Shown here piece after piece: positions 1 to 64,000 of a DNA stretch of 64,000 nucleotides. A model generated the notes under the pieces. The model had not been told where the DNA came from, did not search any database, and was given only the letters and a program-made list of their open reading frames with translations. Source of the stretch: Candidatus Culexmicrobium cathedralense (lineage in GTDB: Archaea > Thermoproteota > Methanomethylicia > Culexarchaeales > Culexmicrobiaceae). The stretch lies in assembly GCA_025061115.1 (NCBI GenBank), contig JANZKC010000001.1:32001-96000 (forward strand), written 5' to 3'. Made by a program: the position numbers and the translations under genes. Position 1 is the stretch's first letter. Each line of letters begins with the position of its first letter.

Positions 1-1756
1 CAATTAACTCTTTACCTTTATCTTTAGATAGCTTGTCTATGATTAGTTTTCTTTGAGCTCTGAATGGACTTATGATTCCAATTTCTGATTTGCTTACTCC
101 ACATCTAATTAGCTCTCTTACTATTTCAACAGCTACTTCAGCTTCTTTTTCATTTAACCTTGAATTATCAACTACTTGATCCACTCCATGAACATGAACA
201 AATACTACTGGCTTCATACCATTAAGAAATTCATATTTGGGCTTAATTCTTAGATTTAGAACTTTGCTTGAGCACGATTTTGCTGCTTTAATCTTACCTT
301 CATAAACATATTTTGCTGAGAATCCTATGATGTCCGGATTACTTCTATAGTGAATTTGAAGCCATAAATGTCTATGATCATACTTGTCTTTTAGTCCTGA
401 AAATGCACTTAAACTTGTTCTCAACTTTAAATCCCTAACCGTCTTAAATATTGGTAATAGCTGTTTGTGGTCTCCAACTACTATCCACTTTTTACCTTTA
501 ACCATCGCTAGCAGTGCTAGTGTTATTGATGCTTGACTTGCCTCGTCAATAATTACTGTGTCAAATTGAATACCTATGAGTGGGGGGAGCTGAGACTTAA
601 TTAATGTTGATCCAATTATAGGGATTTCAAATATAAGTTCTTCACATTCCTTCCTTATCATTTGATTTCTAAGCTTAATTAACTCCCTTAACTCCATCTT
701 GTAGTTACTGATTATTTGCTTTAATCTCCTCTTCTCATGAACGCTCTTAGATCTTCTTAGCTCTTTAATTAAATTCTCAATGGCCTTAGAGTAATCTTTC
801 ACCTTCTTATCTATCTCTAAAATTTTTTGTCCGAGGCGCTGTCTAGCTTTATAACTTAGCAGATACTTTTTTATGTGTTCAAGAACTTTCTCTGGTCTAC
901 CAACCCTTAATGTTTTTTCTAATGGAAGAATTTCTACTGCATTATCTACTGCTCTATTAGTGTGTGATGAAATTAGTATTTTCTCGCCTCTCTTCATTAA
1001 CTCATAAGCTATTTTTGCTATAACTCTAGTTTTACCAGTTCCTGGAGGACCAACAATCAATAACAGTTCATTATCGTTAAGAGCTAGTGCAGCCTCAACA
1101 GCTTTAATTTGAGAGAAATCTAGCTCAAAGGCATCCTTAACATCTCTTGTGTTTTCTAATTTATGGTATTTTAATGATGGTTGCTCAAGACTGTCTAAAA
1201 CTAGTTCTATAGCATTTGGGTTGAATATTTGTATAATTGCTCTTTCAACATCTTTTTCTCCCTTTATTTGTTTAATTAAGTCTAATTGAAGATCATAGCT
1301 AATTAATGGTTCATAATCAAAGATTGTTATTGGCATGTCTTCTTTAATTAAATTGCTTGAAGTTAGTACTATTAATGTGTCTGAGTATGAATCAATTACT
1401 GTTCCTAGATATTCTGGTATAATCTCACCTTTAACTTTCAAAATTATTCCTATAGGATCTCCAGCTTGAAATTTCATTGCATACTTTGTCTCTGTTGTAG
1501 CAACTCCGTGAGATACATCGATTACCCTAGCTTCATAAACTTCCTTAAATGCTTCTCTTTTAGCATACCTTCTTTCCTTGCGAATTATCTCTTCTAAATA
1601 ATTTAGATTACTTAGTGATATTGCTGGTACTAATTTCTCTGCTAATTCAATTTGCTTTTTAAATCCACAATAAATGCAGTAAAGATATAGCTCACCATCC
1701 GATCTGCGTAATCTTAACAATCCATCACATTTAGGACAGAAATTAATTATATTCAT
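1..1756 (-). CDS. SF1B (Upf1/DNA2/IGHMBP2-like) helicase with N-terminal zinc ribbon; 3' end lies outside the window
   Basis: Translated by hand from ATG at 1756 (not in ORF track): MNIINFCPKCDGLLRL...YCIYCGF; Walker A VGPPGTGKT (1028-1051); motif Ia SHTNRAVDN; II VIIDEASQ; III GDHKQLLP; IV IHYRSNPDI; then NEKEA and GIISPFRAQ. Frame open to position 1. Confidence 0.93.
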   Translation of the reverse strand, partial: MNIINFCPKCDGLLRLRRSDGELYLYCIYCGFKKQIELAEKLVPAISLSNLNYLEEIIRKERRYAKREAFKEVYEARVIDVSHGVATTETKYAMKFQAGDPIGIILKVKGEIIPEYLGTVIDSYSDTLIVLTSSNLIKEDMPITIFDYEPLISYDLQLDLIKQIKGEKDVERAIIQIFNPNAIELVLDSLEQPSLKYHKLENTRDVKDAFELDFSQIKAVEAALALNDNELLLIVGPPGTGKTRVIAKIAYELMKRGEKILISSHTNRAVDNAVEILPLEKTLRVGRPEKVLEHIKKYLLSYKARQRLGQKILEIDKKVKDYSKAIENLIKELRRSKSVHEKRRLKQIISNYKMELRELIKLRNQMIRKECEELIFEIPIIGSTLIKSQLPPLIGIQFDTVIIDEASQASITLALLAMVKGKKWIVVGDHKQLLPIFKTVRDLKLRTSLSAFSGLKDKYDHRHLWLQIHYRSNPDIIGFSAKYVYEGKIKAAKSCSSKVLNLRIKPKYEFLNGMKPVVFVHVHGVDQVVDNSRLNEKEAEVAVEIVRELIRCGVSKSEIGIISPFRAQRKLIIDKLSKDKGKELI

Positions 1757-1767
1757 ATACGCCACCG

Positions 1768-2229
1768 TTAAATACTTAATTTTAAATTGAATTTCTTTTC
1801 AAATGCTTCTTTAATTAAATTAAAGTCGTGATGTGAAACTTCACCAATACCATATCCATCAATGTAATTCTCTATTTTTATAAAGTGGGTTAGTATTGGC
1901 TCTAGTGAGAAGATTATTATTGAAAATTCAATTTTCCATGGAAATAGTACTTTATTCTCTTTAATTTCAGCTGGCCAGATAGGGGTTTGATCATCATAAT
2001 GCTTACTTTTAATTAGACCAATTGCATGAATTTCACCAGTTCCAGCTATTTGAAATGTAGCGGAATCAAATGGTTTAATTTGATTATATAACCTAATGAA
2101 AGCCCTCCAATTTCTCCTCTGCTTATCACCTGCTTCCCTATCCCAAAACCCCCATAACAATCTTTTATATGCAACTTCAATATTGTCAATATTCCTCGAT
2201 GAGAATAGCCAGACTTTCACATAATTCAA
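1768..2229 (-). CDS. EVE/PUA-like domain protein (putative modified-base reader)
   Basis: WLF..N..N......LWG, IKPFD...F, G.I.S..Y.D.TPIWP.E......FPWKI pattern typical of archaeal EVE proteins; 11 bp upstream of the helicase. Confidence 0.75.
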   Translation of the reverse strand: MNYVKVWLFSSRNIDNIEVAYKRLLWGFWDREAGDKQRRNWRAFIRLYNQIKPFDSATFQIAGTGEIHAIGLIKSKHYDDQTPIWPAEIKENKVLFPWKIEFSIIIFSLEPILTHFIKIENYIDGYGIGEVSHHDFNLIKEAFEKKFNLKLSI

Positions 2230-2532
2230 TTTCTAAATTGATAAAAATAAGTTTACTGTTTAATTATTATCTCTTTAATAAAGAGCAAGATTGAGCATAA
2301 CGATATGAAGCTGAGAGACTTGGCAAATTAAAGAGGTTACTTCATTGAATTAGAAGGACTGGCTTCTTGGATGATGCCTAATATTTATCCGCCTAGACTT
2401 AAAGTAACAAGCTAACCCCATCTAAGACTTTTGTTATGTTCATAATTCAATGTCGAATTTTTGTTTAGATATTTAAATGATTAGAAGAAAATTTAAAGAA
2501 AAACATATATATCATCGAATTAAAGTTTAGTT

Positions 2533-3129
2533 ATGATGTCTAGTCGAATTTATTATATTGAAAAAGCAATTATGATTCTACTGATATGCGTAGTAATTTT
2601 AGAGGTCTTATTAAGTGCCAATACTTTTGCTTACGAACTTCTAGGTGGGAGGTGGACTGATAGTGATGTAAAGGATCTTTCTTATCGTGTTAAGTCGGGG
2701 ATACCTTATGTAAGTGATATACGTGAAGTGTTTGCAGATGCAGCAGCATCTTGGGAAAACACTGTAGCTTATGGTGTTCCACATTTCTATGAAGTAAGTT
2801 CGGGAGAGAAGATAATTGTGAATGCATATTATGAGGAGTATGGTGCATTAGCATATGCTTATGCGGATCCAAGCCTTTACGCCTATCCTTACGAGTATGC
2901 ATATATTCATGTAAATACATATTACTTAGATGTAGCTTATTACTTGAGTTATGAGCATTTTCAAGGTGTATTGGCACATGAAATAGGTCATATTCTTGGC
3001 TTAGCTCATGAAACAGAGTACGGACCAATAGTTTTAATGTGGCCAACTGATGAATTCTACATTGAATGTGGCATATATGAACCAACACTAGATGAAATTT
3101 ATGGCGTAATGGATCTTTATGGGGGTTAA
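2533..3129 (+). CDS. Secreted matrixin-like (M10) zinc metallopeptidase
   Basis: Signal peptide; HEIGHILGLAH zinc motif; Met-turn VLMWP; C-terminal DEIYGVMDLYG. Confidence 0.9.
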   Translation: MMSSRIYYIEKAIMILLICVVILEVLLSANTFAYELLGGRWTDSDVKDLSYRVKSGIPYVSDIREVFADAAASWENTVAYGVPHFYEVSSGEKIIVNAYYEEYGALAYAYADPSLYAYPYEYAYIHVNTYYLDVAYYLSYEHFQGVLAHEIGHILGLAHETEYGPIVLMWPTDEFYIECGIYEPTLDEIYGVMDLYGG

Positions 3130-3132
3130 TGC

Positions 3133-3789
3133 ATGGTTAGATTTAAATACTTTATTATTTTGAGTGGTCTAATAGTGGCATTAATGGTCTCTATTGGATC
3201 ATACATTCCAAGAGTTGAGGAATCAGAAAACATTATGATTTATGACATCTCAAATCTAAATAACGTTAAAATCGTTAAAGCATATGCTATCTATCCAAGC
3301 ATCATGTATAAGTCATTGACTTATCAAAAACTTCTTAGTGAAAGAGATTTAATTGCTATTGTAGAAATAAGTTATCCAATAAAAACATACCATGTTATAG
3401 AAAAGAACTTCTACTTTACATTATATAAAGCTAAGGTAATTAAGGTGATAAAGGGACCTAAAAATATTAGTGAAATATATTTGTATCAGATAGGTGGCTA
3501 TAAACCGGAAAGAAATGTTTTCTGGACTCTTGAAGGTCTACCGGTATTTAAGCCGGGTGAAAAATGGCTATTATTTATGAAGAAAATGACTTATGAAATG
3601 AATGCCAAAATAAACTTACCGCCAAACACGTATCATGCTGGAGGTTTAGAAGCAATAAAAGTAATTAATGGGAGAGTTTATTCGATGGATAATTTTGAGA
3701 AAATAGCAGAAATTGTATTGCCAGAACAATTAAAAGTAAAGGGCATACAACTACAAGAGTTCATAAACAGCATTCTAACAAAACCATAA
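3133..3789 (+). CDS. Membrane-anchored matrixin partner protein (possible TIMP/NTR-like OB fold)
   Basis: N-terminal TM helix; starts 3 bp after the matrixin stop; DLIAIVEI...YKAKVIKVIKG...PGEKWLLFM pattern. Confidence 0.7.
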   Translation: MVRFKYFIILSGLIVALMVSIGSYIPRVEESENIMIYDISNLNNVKIVKAYAIYPSIMYKSLTYQKLLSERDLIAIVEISYPIKTYHVIEKNFYFTLYKAKVIKVIKGPKNISEIYLYQIGGYKPERNVFWTLEGLPVFKPGEKWLLFMKKMTYEMNAKINLPPNTYHAGGLEAIKVINGRVYSMDNFEKIAEIVLPEQLKVKGIQLQEFINSILTKP

Positions 3790-4027
3790 TTTAACTTTAA
3801 CAAATAAAAGTTATTTTCACCTCCATTAAATTGTATAATATTGATGTTGACTGCAAATGAAAAACTCGAACGAAGCTTTTATAATATATATATGCTGTTC
3901 CGGTGACTGCTATTGCTGCTCAGAGAGGATGGAAGTTAGAATTTGCAATTTTTTCTTTAAGATTTAAATTTTATTATAACTTAATTAATAATGAAAAATT
4001 GGAATAAATTGTGTTGGGTGATTTAGC

Positions 4028-4492
4028 GTGAGATTTGAGGGTCATGCTGGTTTGTCTTTGTTGATTGTTTCTGTTGTTTTGTTTATTTTTGATTTTAGAA
4101 ATTATGAATCCATTATAGCTGGTTTGCTTGTTGTTGGTTTTTCTAGTTTACCTGATTTGGATTTAAGTTGGGAAATCCCGCATAGAAGATATACCCATAA
4201 TATTTTGTTTGGATTTATTTCTGGATTAATTTTTGGTTTCTTATTTATGTACAGTGGTTTGAATTTTGTATTAGGTTTTGTAGGTGGTTTTGGTGGAACC
4301 ATATGCCACTTAATTGGCGATAGTTTTACTTTTATGAAGTTTAAGCCATTATGGCCTTTTAGTAATCTCGAAGTTGGTTTGGGCTTTTTTAAGTCAAGCG
4401 ATGTGAAAATTAATGAAGTATTTCTCACTATTGGAGCTCTATCTTTCGTTTTCCTTTATGTGATTAAGCTTGGTATTTTAAAATTTCCTTAA
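4028..4492 (+). CDS. Membrane-bound metal-dependent hydrolase (YdjM/DUF457-like)
   Basis: GH, LPDLD, HRRYTH, HLIGD, PLWPF motifs. Confidence 0.88.
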   Translation: MRFEGHAGLSLLIVSVVLFIFDFRNYESIIAGLLVVGFSSLPDLDLSWEIPHRRYTHNILFGFISGLIFGFLFMYSGLNFVLGFVGGFGGTICHLIGDSFTFMKFKPLWPFSNLEVGLGFFKSSDVKINEVFLTIGALSFVFLYVIKLGILKFP

Positions 4493-4672
4493 CTATTATT
4501 AATTAATTCTTAAATATTTAATTTTTATATTGTTTAATTGAATTTTATATTAGATGTTTAGTTAGAATTGCTAAATCTTTTTTCTCTAGTGGTTGTTCTA
4601 CTTTTTCTGTTAGGGTTGTTCCGGTTGTTAGTGTTATTTCGATTGTTGTTGGCCATTTTGTTGGTTATTGTT

Positions 4673-4748
4673 AATTGTGCCCCGCCGCTGACACTCGACT
4701 TCATGGTTGGCTTTATGCCTCTTTGTCGAGCTCTTACCGGCGGGGCTG
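4673..4748 (-). ncRNA. Box H/ACA pseudouridylation guide sRNA (single hairpin), predicted target 23S rRNA helix 69
   Basis: Minus strand: GCCCCGCCG-GUAAGAG-CUCGAC-AAAGAGG...AUGAA-GUCGAG-UGUCAG-CGGCGGGGC-ACA-AUU. This gives a 9-bp basal stem, a pocket, a 6-bp upper stem, a K-turn-like element and an ACA box. TATA-like TTTAATA about 25 nt upstream; GC-rich island in an AT-rich spacer. Confidence 0.8.
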
Positions 4749-5005
4749 GGTTAAAAGGTGGTGAATGTTAGTATTAAATTTAATTTATTGTGTTGAGGAT
4801 AAGTGAAATTAGTAGTAATTTGGGTTGTTTGATCTTGGGTTATAAAGTGGATTTGCATCAGTCATCTATGTTTTTATGATTTCAATTTTGATTTGTTTAC
4901 TTTGTTTTGTGAAGATATTATGTTTAGGTTGATCCCTCCTCTCATGGAGGATGGTTTTCCTCTCGAGCGAGGATCATCTGTTTGTTTATTTTGTTAGTGG
5001 GTATA

Positions 5006-5417
5006 TTATTTTTGTTGTCCAGTTTTCCATGATATTTGTTTTAGTGTTAGTAGTTCTTCGTCGTGGGTGTATATTATTGGGATTCTGTTTGCTATGTAGT
5101 TGGCTATTATTAGGGCGTCTCTTCCGTCGAGGCTGTGTTTTGCTGCTAGGTTTAGGGCTATGTTGCATATTCTTTTTGTGTGGTTGTAGAATTCTATGTA
5201 TGGGTGATGTAGTAACATTTGTAATCTTCTTTTGGCTTCGGATGGTATCCATTTTTGGCTGTATACGAGTATGTAGTATGTTTCGTGTATTACTGTTGGG
5301 TTGATTGCTATGCGGTTTTCTGGTGTTAGGTTAATAGGAGTGTTTTGAGTTTTTGTGTTCTGGATAGGCTGGGTCGAGAGCGTAGCATAGTATGTTAGTG
5401 TCTAGTCTTGTGATCAA
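5006..5417 (-). pseudogene. vapC: Frameshifted PIN-domain (VapC) toxin
   Basis: TTG start MITRLDTNILCYALD; frameshift near an A-run at about 5350; later frame ...VIHETY...LDGRDALIIA...IYTHD. Confidence 0.8.
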
Positions 5418-5655
5418 TTAGGTTGGCCTTCATATCGCTTTCATTTTTGATGGTGACCAGTTTTCCGGTTTTCCTGTTCTTGGTGGCTCTGATGTTATTA
5501 TTCTTTTGAATTCTTCTAGAAAGTTTATTGTTTTTCCTGGTTTTAGTATGTAGCCTCTTCTACTTTTCTAGGATGATGGAGTCTCCTATTTCTTCTCTTA
5601 CTTCTCTTGGGAGGTAGATTCGTCCTTTTGAATCTACTTTTAATTTGTACTGCAT
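5418..5655 (-). pseudogene. Frameshifted AbrB/MazE-type antitoxin
   Basis: MQYKLKVDSKGRIYLPREVREEIG (AbrB signature), then frameshift at GAAAAG (~5565) and a TGA near the 3' end. Confidence 0.8.
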
Positions 5656-5923
5656 TTCCAACTAATATTTTTGGGATTTTCTTTATCTTTAGTCTTTCGT
5701 GATGGTGTTATTGTTGATTAAGTATGGTTAAACTATATGGACTGATTCGCTGGATTTTATTGGGGTTTAGGCTTTGGATGAAGTTGGAAAGTTTTTGAGA
5801 TGGAGCTTCGTGGTGGGGATTTTGTTTTAAAGTATTGTGGTGCATATACGTTGAGTTGGTTGTGTAGAAATTCTCCGTTTCAAAACTAGTTTTCTCTATT
5901 GATTTTATTATAGAATTGTTAAT

Positions 5924-6364
5924 TTATTGATTAGTTAGCCATGGACTTAAAATCCTATGTCCTTCATTTATTCCTCTTAATTTCTCTACAAGCTCTCTAT
6001 CAATAGTTAATAATTTTACGCCATATCTTTCCGCTAATGCTAGGAATAGTGCATCGTAAACTGTGACTTTAAGTTTTATTGATAGTTTTATGGCTTCCTG
6101 GATATAGTCGAGATCTCTGTGAGTTATGCATATGTTTTTCATGAATTCATGAAGTAATTCGAGATTCTTTAAGACGATATTGCTTGGCTGCTTAAATACC
6201 ATTATTCTCTTCCAAGCGGCATTACTTGTTTCTAGGAAAGCTAGTTCAGGTATGTGAATTTCAATATATCTTTTAACCTCTTTTTCACACCACTCACTAT
6301 AGTCCTCCGGGAAGAACAGTGCGAAGAGAGCTGAGCTGTCAATGACAATGCTTTTAATGCTCAC
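5924..6364 (-). CDS. vapC: PIN-domain VapC toxin
   Basis: IVIDSSA, E..NA.W, TVYDALFLALA, LLTID motifs. Confidence 0.92.
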   Translation of the reverse strand: MSIKSIVIDSSALFALFFPEDYSEWCEKEVKRYIEIHIPELAFLETSNAAWKRIMVFKQPSNIVLKNLELLHEFMKNICITHRDLDYIQEAIKLSIKLKVTVYDALFLALAERYGVKLLTIDRELVEKLRGINEGHRILSPWLTNQ

Positions 6365-6581
6365 GTTCCCTATCCTCGCGAATCATTCTATCAACTGGTA
6401 CTGGTAGCTTTGATAATTGTCTACGCGCATCACGAGCAGCTTTAAGATATGCTTCCATTAAGATTTCCCTCACCCTTCTAGCAATAAATTGTCTAACCTC
6501 TTTGCTCCAATCAACATTTTCACATTTATCCATCAATTCCTTGAGTCTTTTTGAAACTCTTATGCTTATGACAGTGCTCAT
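6354..6581 (-). CDS. vapB: Ribbon-helix-helix antitoxin (VapB-like)
   Basis: MSTVISIRVSKRLKELMD...VDWSKEVRQFI...IREDRE; overlaps the vapC start. Confidence 0.85.
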   Translation of the reverse strand: MSTVISIRVSKRLKELMDKCENVDWSKEVRQFIARRVREILMEAYLKAARDARRQLSKLPVPVDRMIREDREREH

Positions 6582-63015: not shown

Positions 63016-63690
63016 CTAAACTTCTCCCGATTCCTTTTCAATTACTGCTTCAATGTCCTTTAGTACTCTTTCAGCTTCCTCTATTTTTGCTGTTTCACCA
63101 GCTTTCAATACCTCAGCAATATTCTCAGAGAGTAAATCGTCAATGGACCTTCCCGATAGCATTAACCTACCTCTCTTAATGATCACGGGTGCAGGCTCTA
63201 TAACAGCCCCCCTAATGAAGGCCATTTCCTCATTAATTGGAGTTACAATGAGGCTGCCTACAGTTCTATCGTCCAGCTTGATGTGATATATGTGGTCGCC
63301 GTAAGCAGTTGTGAGCACCTTTTCCAGCGAGTAATCTACAGCCTTCTCTATTAATGCTGACACATTGGATACTACGCTCTCAACAACTTTACTTACTTCC
63401 TCATCTGCCACTCTTTTGAAGTACTCTAGCCTCAAAGTGCCGTAAAGCCATTGAATTTTTCCATTCTTAACTTCATATTCAATTCTAGCTCTAATCACAT
63501 CGCCCTTATCAGACTTCAGCTTATCGACAATGATATAGTAAAGTATTCTGTTTAGCTCTGCAGATGCCCTGGCAATTTCTTGAGGAGCTACTTCTCCACG
63601 CTTAATAAAGTCTCTAAGCTGAGCAAACAGCGTCTTCCTAATTTTATCTGCATAAGCCCCTGCAATTATCAGTCCAGTACTCAGTTGCAT
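63016..63690 (-). CDS. DUF2258 / ThermoDBP-related single-stranded nucleic-acid binding protein
   Basis: LSTGLIIAGAYADKIR.TLFAQL...AELN..LY...DKGDVIR; ATG 63690 after GGGTGA (track start 63705). Confidence 0.88.
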   Translation of the reverse strand: MQLSTGLIIAGAYADKIRKTLFAQLRDFIKRGEVAPQEIARASAELNRILYYIIVDKLKSDKGDVIRARIEYEVKNGKIQWLYGTLRLEYFKRVADEEVSKVVESVVSNVSALIEKAVDYSLEKVLTTAYGDHIYHIKLDDRTVGSLIVTPINEEMAFIRGAVIEPAPVIIKRGRLMLSGRSIDDLLSENIAEVLKAGETAKIEEAERVLKDIEAVIEKESGEV

Positions 63691-64000
63691 CTTACGCTCA
63701 CCCACATTAAGTTATACATACATCGCTCAAAAACATTTCACTTAAATACGGTTAGCACAACGTCCGCTCAGACCACAACAACAATTAATTCAAGGTACAA
63801 CCGTGAATTCTAAGATAAGTAAACCTTAATTTAAAATGAGATAATTACAATGAGAAGCAAAATGCAGCGAAGCTAATATTTATCCAAAGGATGCTAAAAT
63901 GAATTGTGCTATACATAATACACACGACAGGCAAGTGCAATTTGAACTGCAAATATTGTGGGGGAAGCTTTCCGCCAGAAATCGTTCCTTGGAAAGTTCA

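What the first reader, a model, noticed from the sequence alone, without database searches (positions are those of the whole stretch)
1..2229. EVE-domain reader coupled to an Upf1/Sen1-type helicase carrying a TFS/Rpb9-like zinc ribbon: candidate modification-sensing defence or transcription-surveillance system
Seen: an EVE-like gene ends 11 bp before a helicase the ORF track misses. The helicase has all SF1B motifs up to GIISPFRAQ and an extra N-terminus FCPKCDGLL-x11-CIYCGF. Established: EVE domains bind modified bases and occur in modification-dependent restriction loci; Upf1/DNA2-like helicases occur in anti-viral systems; FCPKCGxLL...CxxCG is the N-terminal ribbon of archaeal TFS and eukaryotic Rpb9/A12, which docks on RNA polymerase. 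Inference: the helicase may be tethered to RNAP and triggered by EVE recognition of modified viral DNA or RNA, as a Sen1-like terminator or abortive effector. It sits at the head of an island with TA pairs.
Basis: partly seen in the sequence, partly recalled or inferred. Interest (0 to 1): 0.78.

Follow-up and report, generated by a model that had tools for sequence, protein, structure and literature searches.

The report
EVE reader gene beside Upf1-like helicase
A small archaeal protein of the kind that reads chemically modified DNA or RNA bases sits in one operon with a Upf1-type helicase carrying a small zinc ribbon, probably a new motor partner for a known restriction-associated reader rather than a new kind of system.

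Summary
On the minus strand a 150-153 aa gene (1768-2229) ends 11 nt before the ATG (1756) of a helicase that runs off the window edge (588 aa seen; full-length relatives are about 675 aa with no nuclease domain).

- **Small protein.** It misses the Pfam EVE model but is a divergent EVE-superfamily member by fold and by profile-profile comparison.
- **Helicase.** It is a Upf1/IGHMBP2-like SF1B helicase with a 1B barrel, a stalk and a coiled-coil insert. A flexibly tethered N-terminal Zn ribbon precedes these.
- **Ribbon.** As a family profile it best matches the N-ribbon of TFS4/RpoM and Pfam Zn_ribbon_RPB9. S27ae ribbons score nearly as well, and the window's own copy is below threshold.
- **Linkage.** None of 15 other loci with this EVE family has the helicase. 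Instead the EVE gene lies directly 5' of HsdR in type I R-M operons (8 of 15) or beside an SNF2-nuclease (2 of 15). Bell et al. 2020 already described these contexts.

The most likely reading is a modification-sensing, restriction-like module with a new SF1B motor partner. The effector is unknown and RNA polymerase tethering is untested. I rate it a new variant of a known kind, of moderate interest.

The parts
1768..2229 (-). Stand-alone divergent EVE-superfamily (PUA-like) reader gene, family of MJ_1369. The ORF runs from TTG 2229; the probable true start is GTG 2220 (150 aa). The stop is TAA at 1770-1768.
   Evidence: ORF and sequence. It has 166 homologues at 52-93% identity. The AF2 model has pLDDT 89.9. 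Foldseek finds EVE/YTH structures. hhalign to Pfam-EVE proteins gives 99.3%. The Atlas record starts at residue 4.
2241..2250 (-). A/T-rich TATA-like box (TTATTTTTAT) about 25 nt upstream of GTG 2220, as expected for a leaderless archaeal transcript. This is an inference.
   Evidence: Read directly from the sequence. No tool tested it.
1757..1767 (-). The 11-nt spacer between the EVE stop and the helicase ATG. It contains GGTGG (1766-1762), a Shine-Dalgarno-like motif 5 nt before the ATG. There is no room for a separate promoter, so co-transcription is inferred.
   Evidence: Sequence.
2..1756 (-). Upf1/IGHMBP2-like SF1B helicase: the first 585 of about 675 codons, cut by the window edge. ATG 1756 is the likely start; GTG 1765 is an alternative.
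   Evidence: Pfam AAA_11 and AAA_12. PDB sequence hits to IGHMBP2, UPF1, DNA2 and Sen1. Full-length relatives are 634-676 aa with no extra domain. AF2 pLDDT is 87.8. Foldseek to Upf1 and IGHMBP2 gives E 1e-26.
1664..1741 (-). N-terminal C4 zinc ribbon (FCPKC-x16-CIYCG; residues 9-34 of P0001). A low-confidence linker (residues 42-49) joins it to the helicase body.
   Evidence: Translation. Pfam on the ribbon alone is sub-threshold for both Top1 and RPB9 ribbons. The family profile hits RPB9 in 15 of 17 members and TFS4/RpoM-2. Linker pLDDT is below 50.
1265..1615 (-). Stalk helices plus the 1B beta-barrel (residues 51-167), the accessory domain typical of Upf1-like helicases.
   Evidence: Secondary structure of the AF2 model. 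Foldseek alignments to Upf1 and IGHMBP2 span about 570 columns.
626..829 (-). Long helical hairpin (coiled-coil-like insert, residues 313-380) inside RecA1.
   Evidence: AF2 model helices 313-338 and 342-380.
1028..1051 (-). Walker A motif GPPGTGKT (residues 239-246).
   Evidence: Translation. The motif is invariant across 40 family members.

Best explanation
This is a two-gene operon. A stand-alone, divergent EVE-superfamily reader is translated just before a Upf1/IGHMBP2-like SF1B helicase.

Elsewhere the same EVE family sits in the same position, directly 5' of an ATP-driven translocase-nuclease. That partner is HsdR in type I R-M operons, or an SNF2-NOV_C helicase in DUF1156-methylase/DUF499 operons. 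The pair here is therefore most likely a restriction-like, modification-sensing defence module in which the usual SF2 motor has been replaced by an SF1B motor.

**Proposed mechanism**
- The EVE barrel recognises a flipped-out modified base in foreign DNA or RNA (inferred).
- The helicase is then loaded or licensed on that nucleic acid. It translocates 5'->3' on single strands, unwinding or stripping proteins (inferred from the Upf1/IGHMBP2/Dna2 family).
- The N-terminal Zn ribbon is a flexibly tethered docking or nucleic-acid-binding module. It resembles the RNAP-docking N-ribbon of TFS4/Rpb9 (inferred, untested).
- The helicase has no nuclease domain. An effector, if any, would be encoded beyond the left window edge, or the helicase acts alone.

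**What is shown and what is inferred**
- Shown: gene anatomy, family memberships and the genomic contexts of the EVE family.
- Inferred: any binding, any triggering, the substrate and the defence phenotype.
For: **Operon-like packing**
- An 11-nt gap contains GGTGG before the helicase ATG.

**EVE superfamily membership**
- Foldseek finds 2p5d, 1wmm, YTHDF2 and VcaM4I.
- The A1 profile reaches five Pfam-verified EVE proteins among 1.84 billion representatives.
- hhalign gives 99.3% probability.

**Context of the family in 15 loci from GTDB species genomes**
- Eight have an HsdR-cluster gene starting within -17 to +17 nt of the EVE stop on the same strand.
- Seven have HsdS upstream, and five of those also have HsdM.
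- Pfam confirmed HsdR in the 3 of those 8 that I scanned (L006, L009, L001), and HsdS, HsdM and YgjP in L006. The other 5 HsdR assignments rest on BLASTP clustering.
- L013 has DUF1156-methylase, then EVE, then SNF2+NOV_C with a 4-nt gap. L015 has SNF2+NOV_C upstream.
- L014 lies beside BrxL and DUF499. L005 lies between an Eco57I/MmeI-type methylase and an N6_N4 methylase.
- In total 12 of 15 loci are in restriction-type contexts.

**Literature**
- Bell et al. 2020 describe exactly these standalone-EVE contexts in archaea and predict targeting of modified DNA (passages).
- Upf1-like SF1 helicases are already known as parts of restriction-like systems: CnuH in CoCoNuTs (PMC11090510, passages).

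**Other support**
- The best PADLOC match of the helicase core is MkoA at 4.4e-51.
- The first 4 kb has lower G+C (0.32) than most of the window. The other 30 two-kb bins range from 0.29 to 0.42.
Against: **Linkage and family size**
- None of the 15 EVE loci holds a relative of this helicase (tblastn, E<=1e-3), so the pairing is not shown to be conserved beyond near-identical relatives.
- The helicase belongs to a large archaeal family: 2011 proteins at E<=0.001 among 7998 scored, with the top 120 at 41-65% identity. That would also fit a housekeeping role.

**Missing parts**
- No nuclease, methylase or other defence gene was found in the window. The 64 ORFs of at least 75 aa and the helicase were all scanned. 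The only related item is one PIN gene 3.7 kb away.
- PADLOC and NCBIfam matches cover only the helicase core and are far below family cut-offs.

**EVE partner specificity**
- The EVE proteins are 52-67% identical whichever motor follows them. On the tree 7 of 8 type I rows fall in one 10-row clade, but grouping by partner is loose. This gives little sign of partner-specific co-adaptation.

**Caveat on the scan**
- The locus scan is not exhaustive. It used two strict peptide patterns and did not return the M. jannaschii homologue MJ_1369 that one search lists.
Confidence: 0.45

Rival explanations
1. The adjacency carries no system-level meaning. The helicase is a general DNA/RNA-metabolism helicase of a large archaeal Upf1-like family. 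The EVE gene is a mobile, defence-associated cassette that happened to land upstream of it, or is a relic of a lost R-M operon.
For: - The helicase family is large and well conserved: 2011 hits, with the top 120 at 41-65% identity over about 600 aa.
- 0 of 15 EVE loci carry it.
- The window to the right is ordinary chromosome.
- In 3 of 15 loci (L003, L004, L011) the EVE gene lies among genes with no defence-type Pfam match, including metabolic genes in L004 and L011.
Against: - The two genes are 11 nt apart on one strand, with a Shine-Dalgarno-like motif and no promoter space.
- In 9 of 15 other loci the gene that starts within 17 nt of the EVE stop is also an ATP-dependent translocase, so the position matches the family's habit.
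- A near-identical pair probably exists elsewhere: P0003 at 93% and P0123 at 88-92% are each on 6-7 contigs. Their adjacency could not be checked.
Confidence: 0.25
2. The helicase docks on RNA polymerase through its TFS/Rpb9-like N-ribbon. When the EVE protein detects modified viral nucleic acid, the helicase acts as a Sen1-like terminator or transcription-surveillance motor.
For: - The ribbon profile hits Pfam Zn_ribbon_RPB9 in 15 of 17 members, best E 8.7e-11.
- Its best PDB hit is the N-ribbon of RpoM-2 in 7oqy.
- That N-ribbon (ZR-N) binds between the RNAP upper jaw and lobe (PMC8448823, passages).
- The helicase fold matches Sen1 and SETX, including 8ram, Sen1 bound to Pol II.
- A low-confidence linker tethers the ribbon.
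Against: - S27ae/eS31 ribbons score almost as well: 29.1 against 33.1 bits.
- The similarity rests largely on the FCPxCG...CxxCGY knuckles of a 30-residue domain.
- The window's own ribbon is below the RPB9 cut-off and scores slightly better on the Top1 ribbon.
- 81 of the 121 proteins examined lack the strict CxxC...CxxC pattern, and many ribbon-bearers carry a short-loop type, annotated PF13240 or PF13248 on three of them. RNAP docking therefore cannot be a family-wide requirement.
- Upf1 and IGHMBP2 are closer structural matches than Sen1.
- No RNAP interaction was tested.
Confidence: 0.15
3. This is an RNA-level system. The EVE/YTH-like protein reads a modified base in RNA, for example m6A, and the Upf1-like helicase remodels or clears that RNA. 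That would be RNA quality control, or defence directed at RNA rather than DNA.
For: - Most of the top Foldseek hits of the EVE model are m6A-RNA-binding YTH domains.
- The closest solved helicases, Upf1 and IGHMBP2, are RNA helicases.
- The second-best class of ribbon matches is a ribosomal protein, S27ae.
- CoCoNuT systems with Upf1-like helicases are predicted to target RNA.
Against: - The same EVE family sits in type I R-M and SNF2-nuclease operons, which act on DNA.
- The best two structural matches are archaeal EVE proteins, not YTH.
- Upf1-like helicases such as Dna2 and IGHMBP2 also act on ssDNA (established knowledge, recalled).
Confidence: 0.1

Closest known systems
Standalone archaeal EVE proteins associated with type I R-M operons and with COG1743-methylase / DUF499 / SWI2-SNF2-nuclease operons (Bell et al. 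2020, BMC Biol 18:159, PMC7641849)
   Same: Both are small stand-alone EVE-superfamily proteins. Relatives of the window's protein lie in exactly these contexts: 8 of 15 loci are type I R-M and 2 of 15 are SNF2+NOV_C, one of them with a DUF1156 methylase. The gene sits directly 5' of the motor gene.
   Different: Here the downstream motor is an SF1B Upf1-like helicase without a nuclease domain. No methylase, HsdS or DUF499 gene is in the window. The paper's text does not mention SF1 or Upf1 partners (0 occurrences). Its supplementary figures and tables were not opened, so I cannot exclude that such a neighbourhood is listed there.
Upf1 / IGHMBP2 (SMUBP-2) / Sen1 / Dna2 clade of SF1B helicases
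   Same: It has the AAA_11 and AAA_12 core, the stalk plus 1B barrel, and a helical insert in RecA1. Foldseek gives E 1e-26 to Upf1 and IGHMBP2 over about 570 columns.
   Different: It has no CH domain, no R3H/AN1 domains, no Dna2 nuclease and no Sen1 N-terminal extension. Instead it has a single N-terminal C4 ribbon. It scores below the TIGR00376 'IGHMBP2 family helicase' cut-off (207.9 against 348.9 bits).
TFS4 (RpoM-2) / TFS / Rpb9 / RPC10 N-terminal zinc ribbon (Pfam PF02150)
   Same: It shares the FCPxCG-loop-CxxCGY pattern. The family profile's best PDB hit is the TFS4 N-ribbon, and 15 of 17 family ribbons match PF02150 at E<=0.01.
   Different: It is attached to a helicase, not to a TFS linker and C-ribbon. 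The window's copy is below the Pfam cut-off. S27ae ribbons are nearly as similar. RNAP binding is untested.
CnuH-CnuE modules of type II/III CoCoNuT systems, and Mokosh MkoA
   Same: Each uses a Upf1-like SF1 helicase as the motor of a restriction-like defence system. The helicase core matches PADLOC MkoA at 4.4e-51. CnuH also has an OB/stalk domain and a helical insert (PMC11090510 passages).
   Different: There is no McrBC (CnuB/C) in the window. The CnuE-like wHTH-effector or MkoB PLD partner cannot be checked because the downstream DNA is outside the window. The MkoA match covers only profile positions 589-1011 of 1112.

Membership tests
EVE domain (Pfam PF01878) | Match to the Pfam EVE model at or above the gathering score. 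| tested here: not met
   No Pfam family at E<=0.1 or at E<=10. Seven closer relatives also gave no EVE hit.
EVE / PUA-like superfamily | PUA-like beta-barrel fold closest to EVE and YTH structures. | tested here: met
   The AF2 model has pLDDT 89.9. Foldseek best hits are 2p5d (MJECL36), 1wmm/2hd9 (PH1033), YTHDF1-3 and VcaM4I, at E 1e-5 to 1e-3 and TM 0.5-0.6.
EVE / PUA-like superfamily | Sequence-profile homology to bona fide EVE proteins. | tested here: met
   The A1 profile finds P0171, P0174, P0176, P0177 and P0181 at library-wide E 5.5e-5 to 8.8e-4. All five pass the Pfam EVE cut-off. hhalign of A1 against A5 gives 99.3%, E 1.2e-20 over 133 columns. Caveat: A5 was chosen from A1's own hits.
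EVE / PUA-like superfamily | Binding of a modified base in an aromatic pocket. | not testable with these tools
   The family has several invariant tryptophans, including W7, W26, W41, W85 and W98. Their placement in a pocket was not examined, and binding needs an experiment.
Upf1-like SF1B helicases | SF1 core with AAA_11 and AAA_12 domains and motifs I-VI. | tested here: met
   AAA_11 at 3.6e-40 and AAA_12 at 1.8e-24. Motifs I-V are in the window. The final motifs are cut off here but present in P0123, P0125 and P0126.
Upf1-like SF1B helicases | Stalk helices plus the 1B beta-barrel inserted at the N-terminus of RecA1. | tested here: met
   The AF2 model has helices 51-72 and 152-167 flanking strands 77-150. 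Foldseek finds Upf1, IGHMBP2, Dna2, SETX and Sen1.
TIGR00376 IGHMBP2 family helicase (NCBIfam) | Score at or above the curated cut-off. | tested here: not met
   207.9 bits against a cut-off of 348.9. The protein is truncated by the window edge, which lowers the score.
TFS / Rpb9 N-terminal ribbon (Pfam PF02150) | Match to Zn_ribbon_RPB9 at or above the gathering score. | tested here: inconclusive
   The window's ribbon scores 16.3 bits against 25.2, and Top1 ribbon 18.4 against 32. In the family, 15 of 17 long-loop ribbons match at E<=0.01, best 8.7e-11. Three of the 120 listed relatives carry a precomputed PF02150 annotation.
TFS / Rpb9 transcript-cleavage factors | Two ribbons joined by a linker, with the C-ribbon reaching the RNAP funnel. 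| tested here: not met
   Only one ribbon is present, and it is followed by the helicase. The protein is not a TFS paralogue. At most it shares the N-ribbon.
TFS / Rpb9 N-terminal ribbon | Docking on the RNAP jaw and lobe. | not tested
   I judged the RNAP large subunits too long for the 1000-residue limit of complex prediction. No job was sent for this.
Type I R-M with standalone EVE (Bell et al. 2020) | hsdM, hsdS and hsdR genes beside the EVE gene. | tested here: not met
   No HsdM, HsdS or HsdR domain was found among the window's ORFs. The left flank was not seen.
Mokosh (MkoA+MkoB, or MkoC) | Full-length MkoA architecture plus a PLD nuclease partner or domain. | tested here: inconclusive
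   The PADLOC MkoA hit at 4.4e-51 covers only the helicase core, profile positions 589-1011 of 1112. Full-length relatives have no PLD domain. A downstream partner gene cannot be seen.
CoCoNuT type II/III | CnuH helicase with a CnuE effector and McrBC-like CnuB/CnuC. | tested here: inconclusive
   No McrB or McrC domain was found in the window. The position where CnuE would lie is outside the window.

The most novel reading that the evidence does not exclude
A family of archaeal Upf1/Sen1-like helicases uses a TFS4/Rpb9-type N-terminal zinc ribbon to dock on the jaw-lobe surface of RNA polymerase. In this locus the helicase is put under the control of an EVE reader. Transcription complexes on modified (viral) templates, or their transcripts, would then be dismantled. 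That would be a nuclease-free, transcription-directed immune mechanism and an archaeal counterpart of Sen1 termination.
Probability: 0.1. Interest if true: 0.85.

Novelty: new variant of a known kind. Interest (0 to 1): 0.5.

Why it matters
Standalone EVE readers beside type I and SNF2-type restriction motors are predicted to redirect those motors to modified DNA, but they have never been tested. Finding the same highly conserved reader (52-67% identical across archaeal phyla and some bacterial MAGs) in front of a third, unrelated motor class suggests it is a portable sensor. Such a sensor could license very different translocases. This bears on how modification-dependent immunity is assembled from modules.

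Separately, a Upf1-like helicase family whose N-ribbon most resembles the RNAP-docking ribbon of TFS4/Rpb9 is a concrete candidate for an RNAP-associated helicase in archaea.

If the pairing is only local, the finding is an ordinary helicase next to a known defence accessory gene.

Tried and rejected
**Sequence searches of the EVE-like protein that gave nothing**
- Against PDB with the single sequence: only a chance DNA ligase 4 match at E 0.019.
- Against PDB with the A1 profile: nothing better than E 1.4.
- PADLOC: 0 families.
- NCBIfam: only PRK00809 at 24.9 bits against a 139-bit cut-off.

**Search for fusions of the EVE-like domain**
- All 55 hits among 1.84 billion representatives are 33-172 aa long, apart from one 409-aa cytochrome-like chance hit.
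- No Rosetta-stone fusion to a helicase was found.

**Complex prediction**
- I sent helicase residues 1-588 with the EVE protein, each with its own alignment.
- The verdict was 'no answer', score 0.00, so it says nothing either way.

**Phage and plasmid collections**
- tblastn of the EVE protein against phages: no match.
- tblastn of the helicase against plasmids: 32 records, all below 60% identity.
- The best is a 953-aa 'AAA ATPase' on a haloarchaeal megaplasmid at 35% identity. It has a different architecture, so its neighbourhood was not informative.

**Queries that could not be made**
- The listing of cluster members was meant to test adjacency through accession numbers.
- As a result the left flank of the window and the neighbourhoods of the helicase's relatives (P0123, P0125, P0126, P0204 and others) stayed unchecked.

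**Other negative results**
- Rfam over the whole window: no match.
- Repeat scans of the odd-composition stretch 4400-6000: nothing of note.

**Ideas considered and dropped**
- A fused or adjacent nuclease on the helicase: none in the full-length relatives.
- A defence island to the right of the pair: not there.
Full report
**1. What is in the sequence**

On the minus strand an ORF of 153 codons (1768..2229) is followed by an ORF of 588 codons (2..1765) that runs off the left edge of the window.

- The first gene stops at TAA 1770-1768.
- The second can start at GTG 1765 or, more likely, at ATG 1756.
- That ATG is preceded by GGTGG (1766-1762) at a Shine-Dalgarno-like distance.
- It gives an N-terminus (MNIINFCPKC...) matching the starts of relatives.
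- The small gene probably starts at GTG 2220. Homologues begin there and so does the Atlas record.
- An A/T-rich box lies about 25 nt upstream. Its role as a promoter is my inference.

**2. The small protein**

Pfam finds nothing even at E<=10, and PADLOC finds nothing. NCBIfam gives only a sub-threshold match to PRK00809. The protein nevertheless belongs to a tight family.

- There are 166 homologues at E<=0.001 among 177 candidates. The 120 listed are 52-93% identical and 146-169 aa long.
- They come from Thermoproteota, Bathyarchaeota, Thermococci, Archaeoglobi and Methanocaldococcus (MJ_1369). NCBI names one of them 'EVE domain-containing'.
- The 22-sequence alignment has 35 invariant columns.
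- An AlphaFold model has mean pLDDT 89.9.
- Its best Foldseek matches in the PDB are the archaeal EVE-family proteins MJECL36 (2p5d) and PH1033 (1wmm, 2hd9). Next come m6A-binding YTH domains, then the EVE-HNH enzyme VcaM4I and DrmA. E-values run from 1e-5 to 1e-3 and TM-scores from 0.5 to 0.6.
- A profile search of 1.84 billion representatives returned 55 hits.
- I tested six weak tail hits, and five pass the Pfam EVE gathering score.
- A profile-profile comparison with those five gives 99.3% probability.

So it is a divergent EVE-superfamily reader that lies outside the Pfam model. No hit is a fusion protein.

**3. The helicase**

- Pfam gives AAA_11 and AAA_12.
- The nearest solved sequences are IGHMBP2, UPF1, DNA2 and Sen1, at E 3.5e-29 to 7.4e-20.
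- With a 40-sequence alignment the AlphaFold model has pLDDT 87.8.
- The model shows a three-stranded ribbon (residues 8-39), a low-confidence linker (42-49) and a stalk helix. These are followed by a beta-barrel (77-150), a second stalk helix and RecA1 with a long helical hairpin (313-380). RecA2 completes the fold.
- Foldseek aligns about 570 columns to Upf1 and IGHMBP2 at E 1e-26. Dna2, SETX and Sen1 follow.
- Full-length relatives are 634-676 aa and end with the normal motif VI region. No nuclease is fused.
- The family is large: 2011 proteins at E<=0.001 among 7998 scored.
- The top 120 are 41-65% identical to P0123, apart from P0123 itself. Every source name shown is archaeal.

**4. The ribbon**

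- Alone, the window's ribbon is sub-threshold for both the Top1 ribbon (18.4 bits) and the Rpb9 ribbon (16.3 bits against a 25.2 cut-off).
- Within the family, 40 of the 121 proteins examined have CxxC-x(8-30)-CxxC in the first 70 residues.
- About 16 of these have the long-loop form seen here. The rest have a short-loop form.
- A profile of 17 long-loop ribbons matches Pfam Zn_ribbon_RPB9 in 15 of 17 members. The next families match 8 of 17.
- Its best PDB hit is RpoM-2 in 7oqy. The N-ribbon scores 33.1 bits and the C-ribbon 16.6.
- S27ae/eS31 follows at 29.1 bits, RPC10 at 22.0 bits for its N-ribbon, and RPB9 with a whole-chain score of 25.3 bits.
- 7oqy is the TFS4-RNAP complex. [quoted passage not shown]

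The margin over a ribosomal ribbon is small, the domain is tiny, and the ribbon is optional and variable in the family. RNAP docking remains an untested inference.

**5. Linkage**

I spent the one genome-contig scan on the EVE family, and it returned 15 loci.

- None holds a relative of the helicase within the fetched flanks (tblastn).
- In 8 loci a roughly 1000-aa HsdR-cluster gene starts within -17 to +17 nt of the EVE stop.
- Seven loci have HsdS just upstream, and five of those also have HsdM.
- Pfam confirmed HsdR in the three I scanned, and HsdS, HsdM and a YgjP peptidase in L006.
- L013 has a DUF1156 methylase, then EVE, then SNF2+NOV_C. L015 has SNF2+NOV_C upstream.
- L014 lies beside BrxL and DUF499. 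L005 lies between DNA methylases.
- L003, L004 and L011 show no defence context.

Bell et al. 2020 described these two contexts, type I R-M and COG1743/DUF499/SNF2-nuclease with a standalone archaeal EVE. They proposed that EVE directs restriction to modified DNA (passages). SF1 or Upf1 partners are not mentioned in that text, and I did not open its supplements.

The window's pairing is therefore not shown to be conserved. It does fit the family's habit of sitting directly 5' of an ATP-driven motor.

On a tree of the EVE proteins, the window's copy and its 93% relative form their own branch, apart from a clade holding 7 of the 8 type I rows. The partner of that 93% relative was never seen.

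**6. Surroundings**

To the right of the pair lie:

- a matrixin-like peptidase, an unknown 218-aa gene and a YdjM membrane protein;
- one PIN gene with an overlapping small ORF at 5.9-6.6 kb;
- transporters, regulators and metabolic genes out to 64 kb.

This is not a defence island. G+C is 0.32 in the first 4 kb. The other 30 two-kb bins range from 0.29 to 0.42. Everything to the left, including any effector gene downstream of the helicase, is outside the window and could not be fetched.

**7. Reading**

- **Most likely (0.45):** a modification-sensing, restriction-like module in which a portable EVE sensor has an SF1B motor partner. There is precedent for Upf1-like motors in restriction-like systems: CnuH in CoCoNuTs, and the helicase core resembles MkoA.
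- **Chance adjacency to a general helicase (0.25).**
- **An RNA-directed reading (0.10).**

A complex prediction for the two proteins gave no verdict.

**8. Verdict**

The kind of system, a standalone EVE plus a restriction-type motor, is known. The SF1B, ribbon-bearing partner appears to be a new variant, but it is seen so far in one locus and its near-identical relatives. Interest is moderate.

Noticed in passing
window 5927-6364 (-) and 6357-6581 (-): A PIN-domain (VapC-like) gene (Pfam PIN 3.1e-14) with an overlapping 75-aa upstream ORF that has no Pfam match, probably a VapBC-type toxin-antitoxin pair. It is the only TA-like pair found in the 64 kb.
   Followed up: partly
window 2533-3126 (+) and 3133-3786 (+): A matrixin-like zinc metallopeptidase (Peptidase_M10 4.5e-7, HEIGHILGLAHE motif). 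It is followed 6 nt later by a 218-aa protein with an N-terminal hydrophobic stretch and no family match. The two are transcribed divergently from the EVE gene.
   Followed up: no
window about 4500-5900: About 1.4 kb with no long ORF and unusual composition: GC skew +0.31 and AT skew -0.40 in the 4001-6000 bin. The short ORFs there translate to low-complexity peptides. No tandem or dispersed repeats of note and no Rfam match. Unexplained.
   Followed up: partly
L001, L013 (WOR-3 bacterial MAGs) and L009 (Planctomycetia MAG): The same EVE family, 54-62% identical to the window's protein, occurs in contigs binned as bacterial MAGs, inside type I R-M or DUF1156-methylase/SNF2-NOV_C operons. This suggests transfer of the whole cassette between domains, unless the contigs are mis-binned.
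   Followed up: no
L014 830-6750 (-): In Candidatus Methanodesulfokora washburnensis the EVE gene lies next to a convergent cluster of DUF7680, a 300-aa unknown, a BrxL-like Lon protease and a 1075-aa DUF499 protein. This is a BREX-related or DUF499-type defence locus.
   Followed up: no
L006 9511-10053 (+); also L007, L008, L009: A YgjP-like metallopeptidase gene directly follows hsdR in four of the EVE-containing type I R-M operons.
   Followed up: no
window 63019-63705 (-): A ThermoDBP-related ssDNA-binding protein (ThermoDBP-RP_arch 1.5e-29). Together with the named sources of the closest homologues, it is consistent with a thermophilic archaeal origin of the window. No rRNA or other Rfam family reached its gathering score in the window to confirm this.
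   Followed up: no
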